A stretch of 54,773 bases of DNA, from positions 1 through 54,773 of the IMG/VR virus record IMGVR_UViG_3300042453_001089. One strand, given 5' to 3'. Positions 1 through 54,773 of the stretch are shown in pieces. A program made the translations under genes and the position numbers. The number at the start of each line of letters is the position of its first letter. Position 1 is the stretch's first letter. The DNA is from a virus (taxonomy: Duplodnaviria; Caudoviricetes). The notes beneath the pieces are model-generated. The model did no database searches. It worked only from the letters and a program-made list of their open reading frames with translations, and was not told the origin of the DNA.

Positions 1-823
1 GTGGCAACAGAGTCTTCATCCTTTTTTGCTCCTCGTAGGCACCTTTCACACCGCACTGATCAGGGCACTCTTCGCAAGTGCCGATGTATGTGGATTGGTT
101 TTCGATGCTGACCCAGGCGCCGCCGCCCAGGTTGCGATGTCGATCAACCAAGATGTCGCCGGCCACGACCCGCGCGTCAGACGCTGGGATTCGCAGCGGG
201 TTGTCGATCACCAACTCGCCGGCCGTCTCAAATAGGCTTGCCTGTATCGCAGCCATGCGGCGGCCTTCTTCGGTGTCGCCAAACTTGCAGGACACGATGC
301 GAAGCAGCGACCGCATCCCAAAATCAAGGGACCGCCGCCACTCGCGAAGACGCAAGCGAAGTTCCGCCGGCGTGTCCATCGCTGAAACGGACGTGTTGAG
401 AACCGTGTTCGCGGATGCCATCCGACGCAGGTGATCGTCGTTCGATGCGATCCAATGCTTGGTGACGACGACCGGCGTTTTGAGTTTGCCCAGCCACTCG
501 CAAACCTCTGTCGTCAGATCCCAATCGTGGCAGGGATCGCCCATGTTTCCGATGCGAAACCACGTTGCCGGGTGGGCCACCAGCTGCCGCTCAATCACGC
601 GCCGTTCGCTGTCTTCAACCCGGCGGCTCACGCTGGTGGGGAAGTCGAAGCCGTACAGTTCCGCAGTCGAATTGGCGTAGCAGTGTCCGTAGCATCCGCC
701 CTTCGGCCTGGCCTTCATGCCAAGCGTGCAGCCCTTTACGGTGTCCACGTCGAGCACGCCCTTTCGGTTGCTGGACACTGTCAGCTTTGGCTTGTACTTC
801 TCAACAAACAGTCGCCGTACCAT
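1..823 (-). CDS. 5' part (radical-SAM-like domain) of the three-domain modification enzyme, allele A; runs off the window edge and continues at 51430 on circularisation
   Basis: Colinear with 51431..52253; ATG at 823 with an AAAGGA SD. Confidence 0.85.
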   Translation of the reverse strand, partial: MVRRLFVEKYKPKLTVSSNRKGVLDVDTVKGCTLGMKARPKGGCYGHCYANSTAELYGFDFPTSVSRRVEDSERRVIERQLVAHPATWFRIGNMGDPCHDWDLTTEVCEWLGKLKTPVVVTKHWIASNDDHLRRMASANTVLNTSVSAMDTPAELRLRLREWRRSLDFGMRSLLRIVSCKFGDTEEGRRMAAIQASLFETAGELVIDNPLRIPASDARVVAGDILVDRHRNLGGGAWVSIENQSTYIGTCEECPDQCGVKGAYEEQKRMKTLLP

Positions 824-844
824 CACGCATCCTTTCGTGTGTAT

Positions 845-996
845 TTGCCCGGTTACGCCGGGCGGGCGGTCGAGTCTCTGCGATCAGGAGGAACCGGTTT
901 GCGCGTCTCTCGACTGCCGGCGTTGAACCCCACTGGGCCGGCTATAGGGGCGAATGCTGGTGATGAGCCAGCTACGGCAATCGCGTGCCGGTGGTG
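845..996 (-). ncRNA. Structured RNA leader (hairpins plus probable pseudoknot), allele A
   Basis: Three compensatory base-pair swaps relative to 52273..52422. Confidence 0.6.
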
Positions 997-998
997 AT

Positions 999-1226
999 CT
1001 AGCGGGGTATCCGTTCGTTTTGGTCGAGTTCAAAAATCCGCTGGTTCTCCGCTCGTATGGCCCGTTCGTCGCGCCGCGTGTTGTGCCACGGCCCAACGTC
1101 CACGATCCATGGCGACGGCAGTTCGTCATCAAGCACTTTGCCAAGGTCCGTTTCCACCGTGAGCGGTTCGCTGATCCGTTGCCGGTACTGCTCGTCCGTC
1201 TCGAAGTCGCGTTTGAAATCAGCCAT
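999..1226 (-). CDS. Hypothetical protein (75 aa)
   Basis: GGAGG SD; near-identical protein at 52425..52652; coupled to recT. Confidence 0.8.
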   Translation of the reverse strand: MADFKRDFETDEQYRQRISEPLTVETDLGKVLDDELPSPWIVDVGPWHNTRRDERAIRAENQRIFELDQNERIPR

Positions 1227-2127
1227 GTGTCGCCACCTCCTCTGAGCCGATCAGGATCTCAGCCTTGCCGTGCAGCAGCTTGACCAGCTCGTCACGGTCG
1301 GCGTCGGTAAACACGCCTTCGGTGTGCCGCGTGCTGATGAGATCCCGCAGCGTGTCGCAGTCCTCGAGCGTCTTGGCTCGGCTCACGGCCAACCTGGCCT
1401 TGGCAACCGGGTCCGTGATCTCAGGCGGCTGACGCTTCGTCTTCAGCGTGACGGTGCTGGGCTGGTCCGTGACGATGTCGGGCGTGTGCGGCTCGAACGA
1501 CTCGACGTGGTGGACTTCCACGCCGGACGCGACCACCTGCGATTTGACGCCACGTGGACGAACGACCACGGGTTCGCGGGCCGGCTCAGGCGTCGGGTAG
1601 TCCTGTGCTTCCTCTGCCGTCACGAGCCCTTTCAACACGTCAGGGAAGGCGTCACGAAGAGCGAAGCCACGGGCACGCAGCTGGAGCATCCGTTTCGGAT
1701 ATTGCGTCCACGGGCCAGACTTGCCCCACAGCCCGGCCTTCTTGGCGTCGGCCACGCTGAACTGAACCGTGGTTGGCTTCGGGTAGCCACGCCGCTTCGC
1801 CTGACACTGGGCAACCATGGCATCGCCGTCGCCGGTCACTTCCTCCCAAACGAACTCGCACACCAGACTGCTCTGCACCAAGGCGAGGGCCGCATCGCCC
1901 CAAATGCTCGGGCGACCGTTGATGACAGCGATGCACTGCAGGCTTTGCATCGGGCCGAGTCCCAACTCGGCACCGTGCTGGCCAGCCAGCAAACACGCCT
2001 CCGGCTTGCCCTTGAAGTCTTTGGGCGCGAAGTCGGTCTTCGCCACCATCTGCCAAAAACGCCAGGCATCATCGAACGTCTGCAGGGCCAGCCCGCCGGC
2101 CCGTTGTGTGGTCAATTCCGTGGTCAT
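1219..2127 (-). CDS. recT: RecT/Red-beta-like ssDNA annealing protein, allele A
   Basis: GAELGLGPMQSLQCIAVINGRPSIWGD, AKKAGLWGK..PW.QYPKRML..RARGFALRDAFPDVLKG motifs. Confidence 0.8.
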   Translation of the reverse strand: MTTELTTQRAGGLALQTFDDAWRFWQMVAKTDFAPKDFKGKPEACLLAGQHGAELGLGPMQSLQCIAVINGRPSIWGDAALALVQSSLVCEFVWEEVTGDGDAMVAQCQAKRRGYPKPTTVQFSVADAKKAGLWGKSGPWTQYPKRMLQLRARGFALRDAFPDVLKGLVTAEEAQDYPTPEPAREPVVVRPRGVKSQVVASGVEVHHVESFEPHTPDIVTDQPSTVTLKTKRQPPEITDPVAKARLAVSRAKTLEDCDTLRDLISTRHTEGVFTDADRDELVKLLHGKAEILIGSEEVATHG

Positions 2128-2266
2128 CGTCGCGTCCTTTCGTGTGAATCCCTTTTGAAATCCCGCTCGGCGTCATGCGTTGCGGGTGCTTGTTGCGTCC
2201 TTGCTGCCCCGGTTCCACCGGGCTCCTTCTCCGTTCCGGTTCCACCGGGCCGGAGTCCTTTCCCGT
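2128..2266 (-). ncRNA. GGA-rich element, candidate CsrA/RsmA-binding RNA, allele A
   Basis: 11 GGA in 139 nt on the minus strand vs 1 on plus; two CCGGT-GGA-ACCGG hairpins. Confidence 0.55.
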
Positions 2267-2488
2267 CTAGTGCGTGATGTCCTGCGGCGAAACCGACAGC
2301 CACGCGCCGTCGCACTCAATCGCCAGCCAGCCACGATCAACCGCCATGACGTGGCCGCTCCAACGCTTGCCGGCAGTGCAGCCTGAGACGAAGTCGCCCA
2401 CGGCGGGTTCGCCTCTCGACCGGCTGCGCGGAGTCTGGTCGTGTATGCCAGCGATCGCCGCGAGGTACTCGTTGCGCGCTGCGTCCAT
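2267..2488 (-). CDS. Hypothetical protein (73 aa, small beta-barrel-like C-terminus)
   Basis: AAAGGA SD; conserved at 54453..54674. Confidence 0.8.
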   Translation of the reverse strand: MDAARNEYLAAIAGIHDQTPRSRSRGEPAVGDFVSGCTAGKRWSGHVMAVDRGWLAIECDGAWLSVSPQDITH

Positions 2489-2538
2489 GCTGTGTTCCTT
2501 TGTTCAGATGCCCAAGCAGGGCAGGGAAGATAAAAATT

Positions 2539-2552
2539 GGGGGGGGGGGGGG
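2539..2552. repeat. G14 homopolymer (G13 in copy B at 54724..54736)
   Basis: Direct count. Confidence 0.9.
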
Positions 2553-2654
2553 TGCAATTACCGTGCCGTTTGGCACTTGTTTTTCAGTGTTTTTTGACGT
2601 TGCGGAAAACTTTTGTAGCGGGCTCCTCACTCGTTTGTGGCGGGTCGTGCGGGT

Positions 2655-49947: not shown

Positions 49948-50064
49948 TCACGTCACGCCACCCAGCGAGTCCGCAGCTGCGGCGCTGGTGGCAGAGCCAC
50001 GCACGCTGGGGGCGGGTGTTGAGAACAGCGGGCCGGGCGGTGTGTCGGGCCAGTAGTCGGACAT
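49948..50064 (-). CDS. 38-aa ORF, probable N-terminal remnant of an interrupted wHTH gene (not in the ORF track)
   Basis: GGGAGG SD and TGATG overlap; MSDYWPDTPPGPLFSTPAPSVRGSATSAAAADSLGGVT. Confidence 0.55.
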   Translation of the reverse strand: MSDYWPDTPPGPLFSTPAPSVRGSATSAAAADSLGGVT

Positions 50065-52253
50065 CACAGCCTCCCTATTGGCGGGTACAGCAACTTGATC
50101 TTCTTGGGATCACCCTTGAAGAAAACGAGGATCTTCTGCTCCCGCTTCGGAAACTTCCGGTAGTTCAGCGTTACCTTCGCGTGAGCGAGTCGCGTGAACT
50201 CGCATTCGAGGTAGACGATTTTGTTGTAGATGTGCAGGCCACGGTCGCGGAAAAACAACTCGTGCTCCGCTTCACACCCGTAGTACCCGCCGTGCTTATC
50301 GCGGGAGTCGCCCGTCATCACGACGAAGAATCGGTTGTCGTCCAGCGCGTCGATCGCACGCTGATAACCGGCGAAGAGCATGTCACGAAACTCGCCATAC
50401 GTCGGCAGACTGTTCAATTCGCCGACCGGCGACTTGCCGTCGTAGTCGAGGTACTCCTCAACCTGATAGTAAGGCGGGCATGTAAAGCACAGGTCGAACT
50501 TGCCCTCCGGGGTGTACTGGCTGCTGTCAGACTGAACCCACGTTGCAGATGACAGCTGCGAGCAGATCGCATTGTTGGCGTCGCACTGGTTCTTTCTGAT
50601 CTCGCTGGCGACGTACTCCAGCCCGTAGGAAGCCGTGACAAAGCCGAACTGAACGCCGCCGCCGAACGGGTTGTAGACGCGACTGCCACCACTCGGCATG
50701 AAAAACCGCAGGATCGTCTCGCAGGCCACAGGGTCCAAAACCGATGCGTTGCCGTTGAACGACTTGCCGCGGACTTCCTTGACGGCGTCGCCCTCAATCA
50801 CCCTCTCGGTGAGAACGACATTGGACATCCCGTTGCTGCCCTGCCAGCAGCCGTCACGTGTGGCGTAGGTCGCGTTGGCAACGCCGGCAGCCTGACCGGC
50901 TTCGTTGATCTTCGCGTTCCACTCGCGCTTCATCTTGAGCCAATCCGACCTGGTGGTCGTCCAGGCGTTGGTCATGGTGGCGTGAGCCAGCCGCTTGAGC
51001 CTCGCCTGCGATTCGGTGCCATGCACCATGTAGCAGTAGCCGCTGAGTTCCAGGTACGTCCAGAATCCGCAGCCCTCGAAGACGCTCGGTCGTTCCAGCT
51101 TGTGCTTGGTGCTGCACGTCAGGAACATCGGGTAGCCAAACGTGTTGCGCTGGACGATGGCATCAACCATCATTTGGTACTGGAATTTGTTCTCCATGCC
51201 AGCGACCATCGCGGACTGAAGCAGGCAGAACTCACCGGCCTCGTGATTCACCTGAAATGTGAAGAAACCCGTGAACGCGCCGTCGATCAGCAAGACCATC
51301 GCAGAATGAATCTGCATGTTCTTTCTGGCGGCCCGGTAGGCGACCTTGTCTTCAATCGCAAGTTTCGCAATCGCGTCTTGATACTCCGAACCGAGTACCG
51401 TTTCGACATACACGCACTCCACCGTCTCGCGTGGCAACAGAGTCTTCATCCTTTTTTGCTCCTCGTAGGCACCTTTCACACCGCACTGATCAGGGCACTC
51501 TTCGCAAGTGCCGATGTATGTGGATTGGTTTTCGATGCTGACCCAGGCGCCGCCGCCTAAGTTGCGATGTCGATCGACCAAGATGTCGCCAGCCACGACC
51601 CGCTCGTCAGACGCTGGAATTCGCAGCGGGTTGTCGATGACCAACTCGCCGGCAGTCTCGAACAGGCTTGCCTGTATCGCTGCCATGCGGCGTCCTTCTT
51701 CCGTGTCGCCAAACTTGCAAGACACGATGCGAAGTAGCGACCGCATCCCGAAATCAAGGGACCGCCGCCACTCGCGAAGACGCACGCGAAGTTCCGCCGG
51801 CGTGTCCATCGCGGAAACGGACGTGTTGAGAACCGTGTTCGCGGATGCCATCCGACGCAGGTGATCGTCGGCCGATGCGATCCAATGCTTGGTGACGACG
51901 ACAGGCGTTTTGAGTGTGCCCAGCCACTCGCACACCTCTGTCGTGAGATCCCAATCGTGGCAGGGATCGCCCATGTTTCCGATGCGAAACCACGTTGCCG
52001 GGTGGGCCATCAGCTGCCGCTCAATCACGCGGCGTTCGCTGTCTTCAACCCGCCGACTCACGCTGGTGGGGAAGTCGAAGCCGTACAGTTCCGCAGTCGC
52101 ATTGGCGTAGCAGTGTCCGTAGCATCCGCCATTCGGCCTGGCCTTCATGCCAAGTGTGCAGCCCTTTACGGTGTCCACGTCTAGCACGCCCTTTCGGTTG
52201 CTGGACACTGTCAACTTTGGCTTGTACTTCTCAACAAACAGTCGCCGTACCAT
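50064..52253 (-). CDS. Three-domain protein: radical-SAM-like + GNAT-like + amino-DNA methyltransferase
   Basis: GC..GGCYGHCYA, FRIGNMGDP, CEECPDQC; GFFTF..FCLLQS..FEGCGF; SVLDP..E, NPFGGG, TCPPYY. Confidence 0.8.
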   Translation of the reverse strand: MVRRLFVEKYKPKLTVSSNRKGVLDVDTVKGCTLGMKARPNGGCYGHCYANATAELYGFDFPTSVSRRVEDSERRVIERQLMAHPATWFRIGNMGDPCHDWDLTTEVCEWLGTLKTPVVVTKHWIASADDHLRRMASANTVLNTSVSAMDTPAELRVRLREWRRSLDFGMRSLLRIVSCKFGDTEEGRRMAAIQASLFETAGELVIDNPLRIPASDERVVAGDILVDRHRNLGGGAWVSIENQSTYIGTCEECPDQCGVKGAYEEQKRMKTLLPRETVECVYVETVLGSEYQDAIAKLAIEDKVAYRAARKNMQIHSAMVLLIDGAFTGFFTFQVNHEAGEFCLLQSAMVAGMENKFQYQMMVDAIVQRNTFGYPMFLTCSTKHKLERPSVFEGCGFWTYLELSGYCYMVHGTESQARLKRLAHATMTNAWTTTRSDWLKMKREWNAKINEAGQAAGVANATYATRDGCWQGSNGMSNVVLTERVIEGDAVKEVRGKSFNGNASVLDPVACETILRFFMPSGGSRVYNPFGGGVQFGFVTASYGLEYVASEIRKNQCDANNAICSQLSSATWVQSDSSQYTPEGKFDLCFTCPPYYQVEEYLDYDGKSPVGELNSLPTYGEFRDMLFAGYQRAIDALDDNRFFVVMTGDSRDKHGGYYGCEAEHELFFRDRGLHIYNKIVYLECEFTRLAHAKVTLNYRKFPKREQKILVFFKGDPKKIKLLYPPIGRL

Positions 52254-52272
52254 CACGCATCCTTTCGTGTAT

Positions 52273-52422
52273 TTGCCCCGTGACGTGGGGCATCCGGTCG
52301 AGTCTCAGCGTCAGGAGGACCGGTTTGCGCGTCTCTCGACTGCCGGCGTTGGTCCGCACTGGGCCGGCGATACGGGCGAATGCTGCTGATGAGGCAGCTA
52401 CGGCAATCGCGTGCCGGTGGTG
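52273..52422 (-). ncRNA. Structured RNA leader, allele B
   Basis: Covaries with 845..996. Confidence 0.6.
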
Positions 52423-52424
52423 AT

Positions 52425-52652
52425 CTAGCGGGGTATCCGTTCGTTTTGGTCGAGTTCAAAAATCCGCTGGTTCTCGGCGCGGATCGCCCGTTCGTCTCGC
52501 CGCGTGTTGTGCCACGGCCCAACGTCCACGATCCAAGGCGACGGCAGTTCGTCATCAAGCACTTTGCCGATGTCCGTTTCCACCGTCAGCGGTTCGCTGA
52601 TCCGTTGCCGGTACTGCTCTTCCGTCTCGAAATCGCGTTTGAAATCAGCCAT
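52425..52652 (-). CDS. Hypothetical protein (75 aa), allele B
   Basis: Near-identical to 999..1226. Confidence 0.8.
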   Translation of the reverse strand: MADFKRDFETEEQYRQRISEPLTVETDIGKVLDDELPSPWIVDVGPWHNTRRDERAIRAENQRIFELDQNERIPR

Positions 52653-53538
52653 GGGTAGCCACCTCCTCTGAGCCAATCAGGATTTCCGCCTTGCCGTGCA
52701 GCAGCTTGACCAACTCGTCACGGTCCGCGTCCGTGAACACGCCTTCGGTGTGCCGTGTCGCTATGAGATCCCGCAGCGTGTCGCAGTCCTCGAGCGTCTT
52801 TGCCCGGCTCACGGCCAACCTGGCCTTGGCAACCGGGTCTGTGATCTCAGGCGCCGCCCGCTTGCTCTTGAGCGTCACAACGCTGGCCGGCTCGGTCGTG
52901 ATGTCAGGCGTGTGCGGCTCAAACGACTCGACGTGGTGAACTTCCACGCCGGGTGCCACCTTCTGCGATTTGGTGCCATGTGGACGCACCACAACGGGCT
53001 CGCGGGCCGGTTCAGGCTCGCTGACCTCGTCAGGGTCATAGATCCCGACCGCACCTTCCCAGCCGATGCTCTTGAGCCCGGCCGTGATGGCACGGCTGCG
53101 AAGCATCGCCTTCGGGTGCTTGTTGTAGTTGTCGTTCGACGCCAGCCCGGCCCGCTTCGCGTCCTCAATCGTGAACGTCTCGGTGTGCTGGTCGCCGTTC
53201 GGATGCCGCAGCGTCAGCACGGCCCGCGTCTCAGAGAGTTCCTTGAACTCGGCTCGGCCACCGGCACTCTTGAATCGGGCCAACTGGGAGTCGGCCCGCT
53301 CCGTGACCGTTCCCTTAATGACCTGCAGCTTGCGGCAGGCGGCCATCGTGCCCATGCCCAACTCGCGGCCCATCAGCACAATCGCAGCGAAATCTACGCC
53401 GTTCTTGATGTGAGCCGGCAGGAAGCCTGTGCGGCGAAGTTGGTCGCCCATCGAAACGAGTCCCGCAAACTCCGCAGCGCCCTGGTTGTGTTCTGCCAGT
53501 GCTGTCGGCCTGGTCATAGTGGTGAGTTCAGTGGTCAT
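52645..53538 (-). CDS. recT: RecT-like ssDNA annealing protein, allele B (divergent core)
   Basis: GRELGMG..VIKG, FTIEDAKRAGL..YNKHPKAMLRSRA; C-terminal tail shared with allele A. Confidence 0.75.
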   Translation of the reverse strand: MTTELTTMTRPTALAEHNQGAAEFAGLVSMGDQLRRTGFLPAHIKNGVDFAAIVLMGRELGMGTMAACRKLQVIKGTVTERADSQLARFKSAGGRAEFKELSETRAVLTLRHPNGDQHTETFTIEDAKRAGLASNDNYNKHPKAMLRSRAITAGLKSIGWEGAVGIYDPDEVSEPEPAREPVVVRPHGTKSQKVAPGVEVHHVESFEPHTPDITTEPASVVTLKSKRAAPEITDPVAKARLAVSRAKTLEDCDTLRDLIATRHTEGVFTDADRDELVKLLHGKAEILIGSEEVATHG

Positions 53539-53678
53539 ATTTCCGCGTCCTTTCGAGTGAATCCCTTTTAAAAATCCCGCTCGGCGTCCTGCGTTGCGGG
53601 TCGTTCGTGCGTCCTTGCTGCCCCGGTTCCACCGGGCTCCTTCCGCCAACTAGCTCCGCTGGCCGGCGGTCCTTTGGC
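53539..53678 (-). ncRNA. GGA-rich element, allele B
   Basis: 11 GGA in 140 nt on the minus strand, 0 on plus. Confidence 0.55.
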
Positions 53679-54419
53679 TTACGCCGTATGTGTTCTGAAA
53701 AGCGGCAACTCTGGTTCTTCACGCTTGGCTGTGATCGGAAACGACACCGGCGCGAAATCCGCAGCCTTTGGATATGGCATCGCTCGCGGCGCTAGCCGGC
53801 GACGCGCCCACGGCGTAAGCGGGAACGCATAGCGAAACTGGCGAAATTCATGCTTAGTCGCACGGTCGCGGCCGGCGGCAAGCCTCGCTGCTTTCGGCCC
53901 GCTCCCCCAGCCGCGATTGTCTTTGGCAGCTCTGCCGAGCAGAGACTTGTGAAACCATTCGCCGTCAAGGAAATAAAACGCAGTGACGTGGCTTCCGAGG
54001 TAGATGAAGTTCGCCGCCTGATACACGGCACCAAGCTTTCCGCACCGCTGGTCGGCAAAGCTCTGTATCACCTGCACCATCGGACGATCAGACTTGATGT
54101 GCCGCATCGCCTGAGCAATCGCCCACGAAACCACGTTGCGTTCGTGTCCGTCGATAAAAGCCATCCGATTCAGTTCAACGAGCCCGCAGGGTTCCAGCCC
54201 CTCAATCACCTTCGCTGTAGCCCGCGGATTCATGGATGGCCCAAACTGCAAAACACCCCAAACAAACGAGAGAGAATCGACTAAGGCCAAGTGCGTATGG
54301 GATGCCCAGACGGCACTGCCGCTGTAGTGCCGCTCGGAAATCCAGCGGTCGGCAAAACGCTTCGTCACTGGTGACAAGGCGTAAAGCCGGGTGCCGATCT
54401 TGGTGTATTTGGTTCGCAT
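53679..54419 (-). CDS. mom: Mu Mom-like adenine modification enzyme (GNAT fold)
   Basis: HYS, GVLQFG..MNP, ELNRM, QSFADQRCG..G.VYQA.NF.Y.GSH..FY.LDGEWFH, H.F.QFRY, PYPK. Confidence 0.9.
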   Translation of the reverse strand: MRTKYTKIGTRLYALSPVTKRFADRWISERHYSGSAVWASHTHLALVDSLSFVWGVLQFGPSMNPRATAKVIEGLEPCGLVELNRMAFIDGHERNVVSWAIAQAMRHIKSDRPMVQVIQSFADQRCGKLGAVYQAANFIYLGSHVTAFYFLDGEWFHKSLLGRAAKDNRGWGSGPKAARLAAGRDRATKHEFRQFRYAFPLTPWARRRLAPRAMPYPKAADFAPVSFPITAKREEPELPLFRTHTA

Positions 54420-54452
54420 TGGTTCGCTCAGTCCGTGCGTTTGCAAACTTGC

Positions 54453-54674
54453 TCAGTGCGTGATGTCCTGCGGGTCCACCGGCTTCCATTCGCCGTCGCA
54501 TTCGATCGCCAGCCAACCCCTGTCGCAGGCCATGACGTGGCCGCTCCAACGCTTGCCGGCAGTGCAGCCTGAGATGAAATCGCCCACTGCGGGTTCGCCT
54601 CTCGACCGGCTGCGCGGCGTCTGGTCGTGGATGCCGGCGATCGCTGCGAGGTACTCGTTGTGCGCTGCGTCCAT
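54453..54674 (-). CDS. Hypothetical protein (73 aa), allele B
   Basis: Homolog of 2267..2488. Confidence 0.8.
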   Translation of the reverse strand: MDAAHNEYLAAIAGIHDQTPRSRSRGEPAVGDFISGCTAGKRWSGHVMACDRGWLAIECDGEWKPVDPQDITH

Positions 54675-54773
54675 GCTGTGTTCCTTTGTTCAGATCGTGA
54701 AGAAGGCCGGGAGGATAAAAATTGGGGGGGGGGGGGTGCAATTCCTTTGCCGTTTGGCACTTGTTTTTCAGTT

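What the first reader, a model, noticed from the sequence alone, without database searches (positions are those of the whole stretch)
845..996. Unannotated structured RNA with three compensatory base-pair swaps in the leader of the SAM-dependent modification gene
Seen (plus-strand coordinates, allele A vs B): G851-C859 becomes C52279-G52287 in the SD-proximal hairpin; G960-C968 becomes C52386-G52394 in the hairpin with loop TGATGAG; C930-G947 becomes G52356-C52373, pairing the loop of the GCCGGC/GCCGGC stem with flanking sequence (pseudoknot; CCCUA/UGGGG vs CCGUA/UGCGG on the mRNA strand). The GTCGAG/CTCGAC and CGGCA/TGCCG stems are invariant, and one loop carries CUCCU. Inference: a selected RNA fold (riboswitch-like, ribozyme or processing element). 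I do not recognise it as a known family.
Basis: partly seen in the sequence, partly recalled or inferred. Interest (0 to 1): 0.75.

Follow-up and report, generated by a model that had tools for sequence, protein, structure and literature searches.

The report
Double-pseudoknot RNA of lake phages
A stretch of about 155 bases between two early genes of a lake-water phage folds into a conserved RNA with five helices and two pseudoknots that recurs once per genome in about two hundred related phage contigs whatever genes flank it, so it is a real but uncharacterised phage RNA element and not a switch for the neighbouring methylase gene.

Summary

The element is window 837..990 on the minus strand, with a second variant at 52267..52416. 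It belongs to a large family. Two covariance models hit 195 of 200 loci fetched from viral contigs, one hit per locus, and exactly once in 5 of 5 complete virus records.

No reading frame runs through it in the window's class. Rfam and ARAGORN find nothing.

The link to the SAM-dependent gene fails. Upstream genes fall into at least 10 clusters and downstream genes into 22.

It is an autonomous intercistronic module of the early operon that carries the next gene's ribosome-binding site at its 3' end. Function is unproven. My best guess, at about 0.35, is a put/nut-like RNA acting on the transcribing polymerase. A translation or processing module, a trans-acting RNA and a riboswitch remain open.

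The parts
999..1226 (-). Upstream 75-aa gene of unknown family. Its stop codon is at 999..1001, 8 nt before P1.
   Evidence: ORF list; no Pfam or PHROG family; relatives in 6 viral loci.
975..990 (-). P1 hairpin: 986..990 pairs with 975..979, with a 6-nt loop at 980..985.
   Evidence: Coordinates. Helix 1 is 94.2% paired, with 4 of 5 pairs changed on both sides in A4.
950..984 (-). Second pseudoknot (PK2). Loop bases of P1 (about 981..984) pair with the linker just 3' of P2 (about 950..953), so P2 is enclosed.
   Evidence: 204 of 204 cells paired in the MAFFT alignment A5, against at most 60.8% when the partner is slid. At least 7 loop/linker versions are all complementary. Window coordinates were read by me.
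956..972 (-). P2 hairpin: 968..972 pairs with 956..960, with loop CUCAUCA at 961..967.
   Evidence: Helix 2 is 98.8% paired, with 5 of 5 pairs changed on both sides.
916..949 (-). H-type pseudoknot. S1 is 945..949 with 928..932 (carries the swap 930/947). S2 is 937..942 with 916..921. The L3 loop is 922..927.
   Evidence: S2 is 93.1% paired. The same topology was found in 56 of 79 distinct family members, against 5.9 +/- 2.3 in shuffles, with 23 different S1 cores.
869..914 (-). P4 long hairpin. The outer stem is 909..914 with 869..874. A short inner stem is 902..904 with 880..882. The apical loop 883..901 holds CUCCU.
   Evidence: Outer stem 96.8% paired, with 5 of 6 pairs changed on both sides. 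In A5, 9 of 11 P4 pairs changed on both sides.
847..863 (-). P5 GC-rich hairpin: 858..863 pairs with 847..852, with loop 853..857. It carries the swap 851/859.
   Evidence: In the sample not selected on P5, 3 of 5 pairs changed on both sides and 100% of cells are paired.
821..846 (-). A/C-rich tail (837..846), Shine-Dalgarno region (830..836) and the start of the downstream gene (GTG 824..826 or ATG 821..823).
   Evidence: The motif ACACGAAAGGA occurs exactly at 830, 2135 and 52260. A start with an SD lies 7-24 nt after the tail in 95 of 105 distinct contexts.
52267..52416 (-). Second, variant copy of the whole element (P1 to tail) in the imperfectly overlapping other end of the record.
50064..52256 (-). 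Downstream 730-aa gene. The N-terminal domain has no family. Residues 471..724 are DNA-methyltransferase-like. Copy A of this gene is cut by the window start (2..826).
   Evidence: ORFs. PHROG 498 and 12517. The Pfam hit is below threshold only.

Best explanation
Shown: the stretch encodes a selected, sense-strand RNA fold of about 150 nt. In order it comprises:
- hairpin P1, whose loop pairs with the linker after hairpin P2 (pseudoknot PK2);
- hairpin P2;
- an H-type pseudoknot (S1/S2);
- one unpaired A;
- a long hairpin, P4, whose apical loop usually holds CUCC;
- a GC hairpin, P5;
- an A/C-rich tail and the ribosome-binding site of the next gene.

Most members, though not the window's own subtype, also have an invariant G.U next to a 2-nt RA bulge in P4.

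The element is an autonomous intercistronic module. It sits once per phage genome in the early operon. It starts a few bases after the stop codon of whatever gene lies upstream and ends at the start of whatever gene lies downstream.

Inferred: it acts in cis on the long early transcript rather than on one gene.

My preferred mechanism, at about one chance in three, is that the folded nascent RNA binds the transcribing RNA polymerase, alone or with a phage or host factor bound at P5. This would make the polymerase read through pause and termination signals in the replication and late genes. In this record those genes follow on the same strand for more than 40 kb. The known analogues are HK022 put RNA and lambda nut sites. 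No step of this mechanism was tested here.
For: Structure:
- In A4, 92.7% of cells are paired, against 74.7 +/- 0.5 in shuffles and 27-46% when partners are slid. 21 of 28 pairs changed on both sides.
- In the alignment that was not structure-fitted, A5, 97.0% are paired against 84.7 +/- 0.5. 9 of 11 P4 pairs covary.
- The pseudoknot S1/S2 is found in 56 of 79 members against 5.9 +/- 2.3 in shuffles.
- PK2 is paired in 204 of 204 cells, with at least 7 covarying versions.

RNA on this strand:
- The G.U pair is invariant in 51 of 51 sequences.
- G.U cells number 44 against 19 A.C cells in P1-P4.
- An SD and start follow on the same strand in 95 of 105 contexts.

Autonomy:
- Upstream ORFs end -1..+20 nt before P1 in 65 of 70 contexts and fall into 10 clusters.
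- Downstream ORFs fall into 22 clusters. They include winged-helix, helicase, HNH, deoxyribosyltransferase, integrase-like and methylase genes.

Single copy:
- 5 of 5 complete records have one match.
- 195 of 200 loci have one match each.

Fit to a put/nut-type role:
- It is independent of flanking genes.
- There is one site in a long co-directional gene array.
- There is no local expression platform. The SD is outside every conserved helix. P5 has no U-run. The P4 loop does not covary with the SD.
- put RNA likewise works alone, in cis, over 10 kb or more (PMC9378689, passages read).
Against: - No transcript data exist for it.
- The put-like role rests only on analogy.
- The element shares neither size nor architecture with put RNA, which is about 70 nt with two stem-loops.
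- It lies about 1.6 kb and three genes downstream of the likely operon start, not next to a promoter.
- The consensus scan found no convincing intrinsic terminators on the minus strand downstream: 24 weak sites against 16.5 +/- 3.8 in shuffles.
- Its constant contact with the next RBS fits a translational role equally well.
- Sequences from metagenomes are related to one another, so the shuffle controls are not probabilities.
- A4 was fitted to the model's structure.
- Each of the two large samples was selected on one part of the element: P5 and the pseudoknot junction.
Confidence: 0.35

Rival explanations
1. Translation and processing module. The fold is a portable 5' untranslated cassette. 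It is recognised by a nuclease, a ribosomal protein or a phage protein. It leaves P5 as a protective 5' hairpin and presents an unstructured A/C-rich tail plus SD. Whatever gene recombines in behind it is then translated at a set level, insulated from the upstream message.
For: - The element always ends 7-24 nt before a start codon with an SD: 95 of 105 contexts, most often 13-14 nt.
- The identical tail, SD and start context precedes unrelated genes in the window, L019, L090, L144, L035 and L032.
- The SD lies outside all helices.
- Ribosomes ending the upstream gene stop 6-9 nt before P1 in most contexts.
Against: - A single hairpin would be enough for insulation, so two pseudoknots and an invariant G.U/bulge motif are unexplained.
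- The same SD motif serves RecT at 2135 without this element.
- Three AT-richer members lack P5 altogether (L201, L210, L218).
- There is one site per genome, unlike the many RNase III sites recalled for T7.
Confidence: 0.25
2. Trans-acting or decoy non-coding RNA. The fold is cut out of the early transcript and acts elsewhere, for example on a host or defence protein.
For: It is a compact, autonomous fold independent of its neighbours, with a complex tertiary structure.
Against: - It has no promoter or terminator of its own: no conserved motif upstream and no U-run after P5.
- It has no tRNA or tmRNA features.
- In the short class, reading frames run into it.
Confidence: 0.12
3. Riboswitch. 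The double pseudoknot is an aptamer for a small molecule that reports host state, and it gates the downstream early genes.
For: - Pseudoknotted folds with invariant junction bases are typical of aptamers (general knowledge).
- The bases that stay constant here are the G.U pair and the single A between S2 and P4, plus the AAC at the end of L3 in the P5-selected sample.
Against: - No expression platform: no terminator, no SD sequestration and no conserved alternative pairing was seen.
- The downstream genes share no pathway.
- No Rfam riboswitch matches.
- The SAM idea specifically loses its only basis, the neighbouring gene.
Confidence: 0.1
4. Self-cleaving ribozyme of a new class.
For: Small pseudoknotted ribozymes are common in phage and metagenome DNA (general knowledge). 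The element is intercistronic.
Against: No match to any ribozyme family on the sense strand. The only hit is Hammerhead_II on the antisense strand of one member, at 21.3 bits against a gathering score of 37 and E = 2.2. The topology of two consecutive pseudoknots resembles no known class that I recall.
Confidence: 0.05
5. DNA-level element only. It would be a recombination linker at a module boundary or a protein-binding set of palindromes, with no RNA function.
For: It sits exactly where gene cassettes are exchanged. Several stems are CCGG-type palindromes.
Against: - Helices keep pairing while their sequences change completely.
- The invariant G.U would be a C.A mismatch on the other strand.
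- Pseudoknots have no meaning in duplex DNA.
Confidence: 0.04

Closest known systems
HK022 put RNA (putL, putR), a factor-independent antiterminator RNA
   Same: A cis-acting structured RNA encoded inside phage early operons and independent of the flanking genes. It acts through its tertiary fold and has no local expression platform (PMC9378689, passages read).
   Different: put is about 70 nt, with two stem-loops and a triplex and no pseudoknots reported. It lies next to, or 270 nt from, the early promoters and occurs twice per genome. This element is about 150 nt with five helices and two pseudoknots. It occurs once per genome, after three genes. There is no sequence or model similarity. Function was not tested here.
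Lambdoid nut sites (boxA plus boxB hairpin bound by N)
   Same: P5 is a short GC stem with a 5-7-nt loop in an early operon, conserved in shape. One site per operon would be enough. This resemblance is recalled, not tested.
   Different: nut is a small linear-plus-hairpin site. Here four further helices and two pseudoknots are conserved. No boxA was sought with a model and no N-like protein was identified.
T4 gene 32 leader pseudoknot (translational operator)
   Same: A pseudoknot upstream of an unstructured stretch and an RBS in a phage message (as cited in PMC10690425, passage read).
   Different: That operator is tied to one gene, whose product binds it. This element precedes 22 different gene clusters.
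Candidate structured RNAs of IMG/VR (Fremin, Bhatt and Kyrpides 2023, PMC10690425)
   Same: Same data source and the same kind of evidence. That work lists 879 candidates lying within 25 bases upstream of genes (abstract and passages read).

Membership tests
SAM-binding riboswitches (Rfam SAM-I to SAM-VI, SAM-SAH) | Match to the family covariance model | tested here: not met
   No match at the gathering score in the window. There was none among hits with E up to 10 in 780..1060, and none among hits with E up to 5 in five other members.
SAM-binding riboswitches (Rfam SAM-I to SAM-VI, SAM-SAH) | Consistent position upstream of SAM or methionine metabolism genes | tested here: not met
   Downstream genes fall into 22 clusters, and methylases are a minority. 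Homologs of the 730-aa gene lack the element directly upstream.
HK022 put RNA | About 70 nt, two stem-loops | tested here: not met
   About 150 nt, five helices and two pseudoknots, against the description read.
HK022 put RNA | Suppresses termination and pausing in cis without protein factors | not testable with these tools
   Needs transcription assays.
Lambdoid nut site | boxB-type hairpin with a protein-binding pentaloop, a boxA upstream, and an N-type arginine-rich protein | tested here: inconclusive
   P5 has a 5-6-bp GC stem and a 5-7-nt loop with covarying stem pairs. boxA was not searched, because I only recall the consensus. A small basic ORF overlaps the element in the short class only.
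Known self-cleaving ribozymes (hammerhead, twister, pistol, hatchet, HDV-like; Rfam) | Match to the family covariance model on the sense strand | tested here: not met
   The only hit is an antisense Hammerhead_II hit at E = 2.2, below the gathering score.
tRNA / tmRNA | Detected by ARAGORN | tested here: not met
   0 genes in the window.
Intrinsic terminator | GC hairpin followed by a run of U | tested here: not met
   No minus-strand terminator-like site at 847..863. The tail after P5 is A/C-rich.
H-type pseudoknot (structural class) | Two helices in which a hairpin loop pairs with a downstream strand, supported by covariation | tested here: met
   S1/S2. PK2.

The most novel reading that the evidence does not exclude
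The double pseudoknot is a protein-free sensor or effector. One version is an aptamer for a host-state or defence-signal nucleotide. The other is an RNA that by itself reprograms RNA polymerase. Either would gate the whole delayed-early and late programme of a large group of freshwater phages. It would then be the first whole-programme riboswitch in a phage, or the first put-type antiterminator RNA outside HK022-like coliphages.
Probability: 0.15. Interest if true: 0.9.

Novelty: new variant of a known kind. Interest (0 to 1): 0.7.

Why it matters
Few cis-acting RNAs that control whole phage operons are known, and HK022 put is the only protein-free case that I recall. Here is a well-defined fold with rich covariation: two pseudoknots, an invariant G.U next to a bulge, and about 195 instances. 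It sits at a fixed regulatory position in uncultivated lake phages and matches nothing in Rfam.

It is small enough for in-vitro probing, for reporter assays with compensatory mutants and for structure determination, so its function can be tested directly.

It also shows that in these mosaic genomes the unit kept through gene shuffling is the RNA element together with the ribosome-binding site. That matters for reading phage modularity and for annotating such contigs.

Tried and rejected
- **Conserved peptide.** Rejected for the window's class. A and B differ by frame-shifting indels. L021 and L025 differ by a 1-nt indel in the P2 loop. The frame ending at the P4 bulge is 11 codons or fewer in the typical long class.
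- **P4 loop CUCC pairing with the downstream SD.** No covariation. The mean longest duplex is 3.27, against 3.37 +/- 0.06 with permuted partners. CUCC is present in 61 of 107 loops and UCC in 70 of 107.
- **Thermodynamic signal.** None.
- **RNAalifold on a plain MAFFT alignment of 7 sequences.** It gave a partly wrong fold. I replaced it with model-based and anchored analyses.
- **Deposited phage genomes.** No match.
- **An exact 22-nt word from P4 in viral contigs.** No match.
- **Metagenome contigs.** One stretch only, the contig already known as L022.
- **Genome contigs.** One stretch, L147. It proved to be a chance match inside a coding region: 13.3 bits with R2, P4 not formed, and the whole-genome search empty. 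No host can be named from it.
- **A loose pseudoknot search.** It did not separate real from shuffled sequences: only 8 of 79 exceeded all 20 shuffles. The strict-topology search did. Of the 79, 23 failed the strict search, mostly because of a longer L3 or one mismatch.
- **Strict P4 parser.** It failed on 24 of 166 sequences. These were left out.
- **Sequencing runs.** No RNA holder was listed. All 24 rows are DNA runs, 22 labelled lake-water metagenome and 2 labelled metagenome only. Read laying was not used, because contigs cannot show RNA ends.
- **Earlier findings of this scan.** Nothing was returned.
- **Literature.** Two full-text searches turned up no description of this element. The supplements of PMC10690425, which may list it, are closed.

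Full report
**What the window is.** The window is a whole IMG/VR virus record of 54,773 bases. Its two ends overlap imperfectly: 1..1595 matches 51431..53020 at 92.9% identity, and further pieces match at about 88%.

The genes here run on the minus strand, in this order:
- a 73-aa gene (2488..2267);
- a 139-nt spacer;
- a RecT-like gene (2127..1219; Pfam RecT and PHROG 561);
- a 75-aa gene (1226..999);
- the spacer in question (998..827);
- a 730-aa gene, complete only in copy B (52256..50064).

The C-terminal third of the 730-aa product is DNA-methyltransferase-like by PHROG. It does not reach the Pfam threshold. Nearly all later genes follow on the same strand. They include a second methylase, a replication initiator and a clamp-like protein.

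**Check of the observation.** An alignment of the two copies and a coordinate table confirm each of the three swaps at the stated bases, and confirm that the two named stems are identical in both copies. The element is more diverged (153/172, 89.0%) than the coding DNA on either side (95.9% and 95.2%). Even so, no internal base pair is lost. By my reading, six of the seven helix substitutions are the three compensated pairs, and the seventh opens the loop-closing pair of P5. Folding energy is ordinary for this G+C content (z = 0.35 and -0.42). Only comparison could reveal the fold.

**Relatives show that the element is not tied to the methylase gene.**
- Homologs of the N-terminal domain of the 730-aa protein occur in 14 viral loci. 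None has the element directly upstream.
- Relatives of the 75-aa protein occur in 6 loci. Four of them (L017 = L018, L019, L020) carry the element right after that gene but before three different genes. These encode a winged-helix protein, a ParB-like methylase and an HNH protein.
- L021/L022 and L025 carry a diverged version before an HNH-like gene. In L025 it also follows a different upstream gene.
- In that diverged version P1 is conserved in sequence, while P2, P4 and P5 have other sequences that still pair.

**Size of the family.**
- A covariance model built from the five close sequences (R1) found the diverged versions at E about 1e-15. It found the 3' half in L003 and L004.
- A second model (R2) was built from a plain MAFFT alignment of 51 sequences taken from the junction-selected sample. 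It hit 100 of 100 and 95 of 100 of these loci, one match each.
- The five loci without a match hold chance matches of the junction pattern.
- R2 matches the window's two copies at 68.7 and 74.7 bits.
- R2 matches five virus records rated 100% complete exactly once each.
- Rfam gives nothing at the gathering score in the window. It gives nothing meaningful at permissive thresholds in the window region or in five other members. ARAGORN finds no tRNA or tmRNA.

**The fold.**
- On the 98-match alignment A4 (90 distinct rows), 92.7% of cells pair. The figure is 74.7 +/- 0.5 after shuffling partners and 27-46% when partners are slid. 21 of 28 pairs show changes on both sides. A4 is fitted to the model, and its P5 was selected by the search pattern.
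- On A5, which is not structure-fitted and not selected on P5, 97.0% of cells pair, against 84.7 +/- 0.5.
- In A5, 9 of 11 pairs of P4 and 3 of 5 pairs of P5 change on both sides.
- In A5, the first pair of the inner P4 stem is G.U in 51 of 51 sequences, next to a 2-nt bulge. The last three bases before the outer 3' strand read UGA or UAA in 112 of 142 parsed members.
- The window's own subtype has a shorter inner stem flanked by purine-rich internal loops instead of this motif.

In the window, 945..949 pairs with 928..932 inside the loop of the GCCGGC stem. Other subtypes show the same arrangement with entirely different S1 sequences:
- 5-bp S1;
- a short L1;
- S2;
- a short L2;
- S1';
- an L3 that usually ends in AAC;
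- S2';
- one A;
- P4.

A search under a fixed topology finds this arrangement in 56 of 79 distinct members. In 200 shuffles the mean is 5.9 +/- 2.3 and the maximum 13. There are 23 different S1 cores. In the window's subtype a rival register for S1 works only in B-like sequences.

**A second pseudoknot.** Four bases of the P1 loop pair with the linker just after P2. All 204 cells pair in A5, against at most 60.8% when slid. In the P5-selected sample at least seven loop/linker versions are complementary. In a fixed register 89 of 104 cells pair, and by my reading the remainder fit after a shift of one base.

**Strand and molecule.** Four observations place the function in the minus-strand RNA:
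- the invariant G.U pair;
- 44 G.U cells against 19 A.C cells in P1-P4 (the model-fitted alignment leans towards G.U);
- the presence of pseudoknots;
- an SD and start codon 7-24 nt after the tail on the same strand in 95 of 105 contexts.

**Context.**
- Upstream, an ORF of at least 40 codons ends -1 to +20 nt before P1 in 65 of 70 distinct long-class contexts, most often 6-9 nt before it. These ORFs form 10 clusters.
- No shared promoter-like motif precedes P1.
- Downstream ORFs form 22 clusters. Representatives include winged-helix proteins, an SNF2 helicase, HNH nucleases, a nucleoside deoxyribosyltransferase, a small HTH protein and an integrase-like protein.
- The identical tail, SD and start context is joined to unrelated genes. 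The recombination joints therefore lie at the start codon and just after the upstream stop.
- After the 730-aa gene the window keeps a 39-codon remnant that matches the N-terminus of the winged-helix gene following the element in L017. This suggests that the methylase gene was inserted behind the element.

**A subclass with overlapping frames.** In members such as L003, L004, L056, L076 and L117, a small basic ORF of 49-79 codons with its own SD overlaps P2 to P4 and stops at the P4 bulge. In others, such as L054, L071 and L099, the upstream gene runs into the element. R2 still aligns these members over its whole length, and their helices covary. I read most of the apparent peptide conservation as a shadow of the RNA constraints. 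The N-terminal part of the small ORF lies upstream of the helices and may be a real gene.

**Function.** Nothing here measures function. Against a SAM or other metabolite switch:
- there is no shared downstream pathway;
- there is no terminator;
- the SD is not sequestered;
- the P4 loop does not covary with the SD.

Against an operator for one gene: the downstream gene varies. Against an RNA gene of its own: it has no promoter or terminator.

What remains is a cis-acting element of the early transcript. Four features are those of the phage antitermination RNAs:
- gene independence;
- single copy;
- position ahead of a long co-directional array;
- absence of a local expression platform.

HK022 put RNA works alone, in cis, and over 10 kb or more (PMC9378689; passages read). 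I therefore put a put/nut-like action on RNA polymerase first, at about 0.35. The weak points are stated plainly:
- the architecture differs from put;
- the element is 1.6 kb from the likely operon start;
- no clear terminators were found downstream.

A translation or processing cassette comes next (0.25). It is favoured by the constant contact with the RBS. A processed trans-acting RNA (0.12), a riboswitch (0.10), a ribozyme (0.05) and a DNA-only element (0.04) follow.

**Novelty.** I found no description in two full-text searches. The IMG/VR survey of Fremin and colleagues lists 8,495 unnamed candidates of at most 151 nt (PMC10690425; abstract and passages read). It may contain this element or part of it, but its supplements could not be opened.

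**Host.** The host is unknown. The one hit in 185,579 species genomes was a chance match. The DNA occurs in lake-water metagenome runs, and no RNA run was listed.

Noticed in passing
window 1..2588 and 51431..54772: The record's two ends are diverged copies of one region: 92.9% identity over 1.6 kb and about 88% further on. The RecT-like genes differ in length (302 against 334 aa) and in their best PHROG family. Copy B has about 0.8 kb between 53643 and 54455 where copy A has about 40 bases. This looks like two strains joined at assembly, or a diverged terminal redundancy.
   Followed up: partly
window 2128..2266 (-): The spacer before the RecT-like gene holds two hairpins with the same 15-base core. 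It ends in the same ACACGAAAGGA ribosome-binding motif as the element. It may be a second, simpler leader module. R1 and R2 do not match it.
   Followed up: partly
window 2540..2553 and 54725..54737: A homopolymer run of about 13 G/C lies in the divergent region upstream of the early operon in both copies.
   Followed up: no
window 49948..50064 (-): A 39-codon ORF overlaps the stop of the 730-aa gene. It matches the N-terminus of the winged-helix gene that follows the element in L017. It is probably a remnant left when the methylase gene was inserted.
   Followed up: partly
window 50064..52256 (-), residues 1..285: The N-terminal domain of the 730-aa protein has no Pfam or PHROG family. It has relatives at 41-83% identity in 14 viral contigs. 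It carries several clustered cysteines.
   Followed up: no
L004 about 1933..2092; also L003, L056, L076, L117: A small, very basic ORF of 49-79 codons with its own SD overlaps P2-P4 of the element and ends at the P4 bulge. Its start region, upstream of the helices, is conserved among these loci.
   Followed up: partly
L246 2245..2326 (-): A sub-threshold match to the c-di-GMP-II-GCG riboswitch model: 28.9 bits against a gathering score of 47.9, E = 0.15. It lies about 600 bases upstream of the element in that phage.
   Followed up: no
L201, L210, L218 and L169: AT-richer relatives keep the pseudoknot and P4. In L210 and L218 P4 holds a long insertion. L201, L210 and L218 lack P5. L169 keeps P5 with the same loop type.
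   Followed up: no
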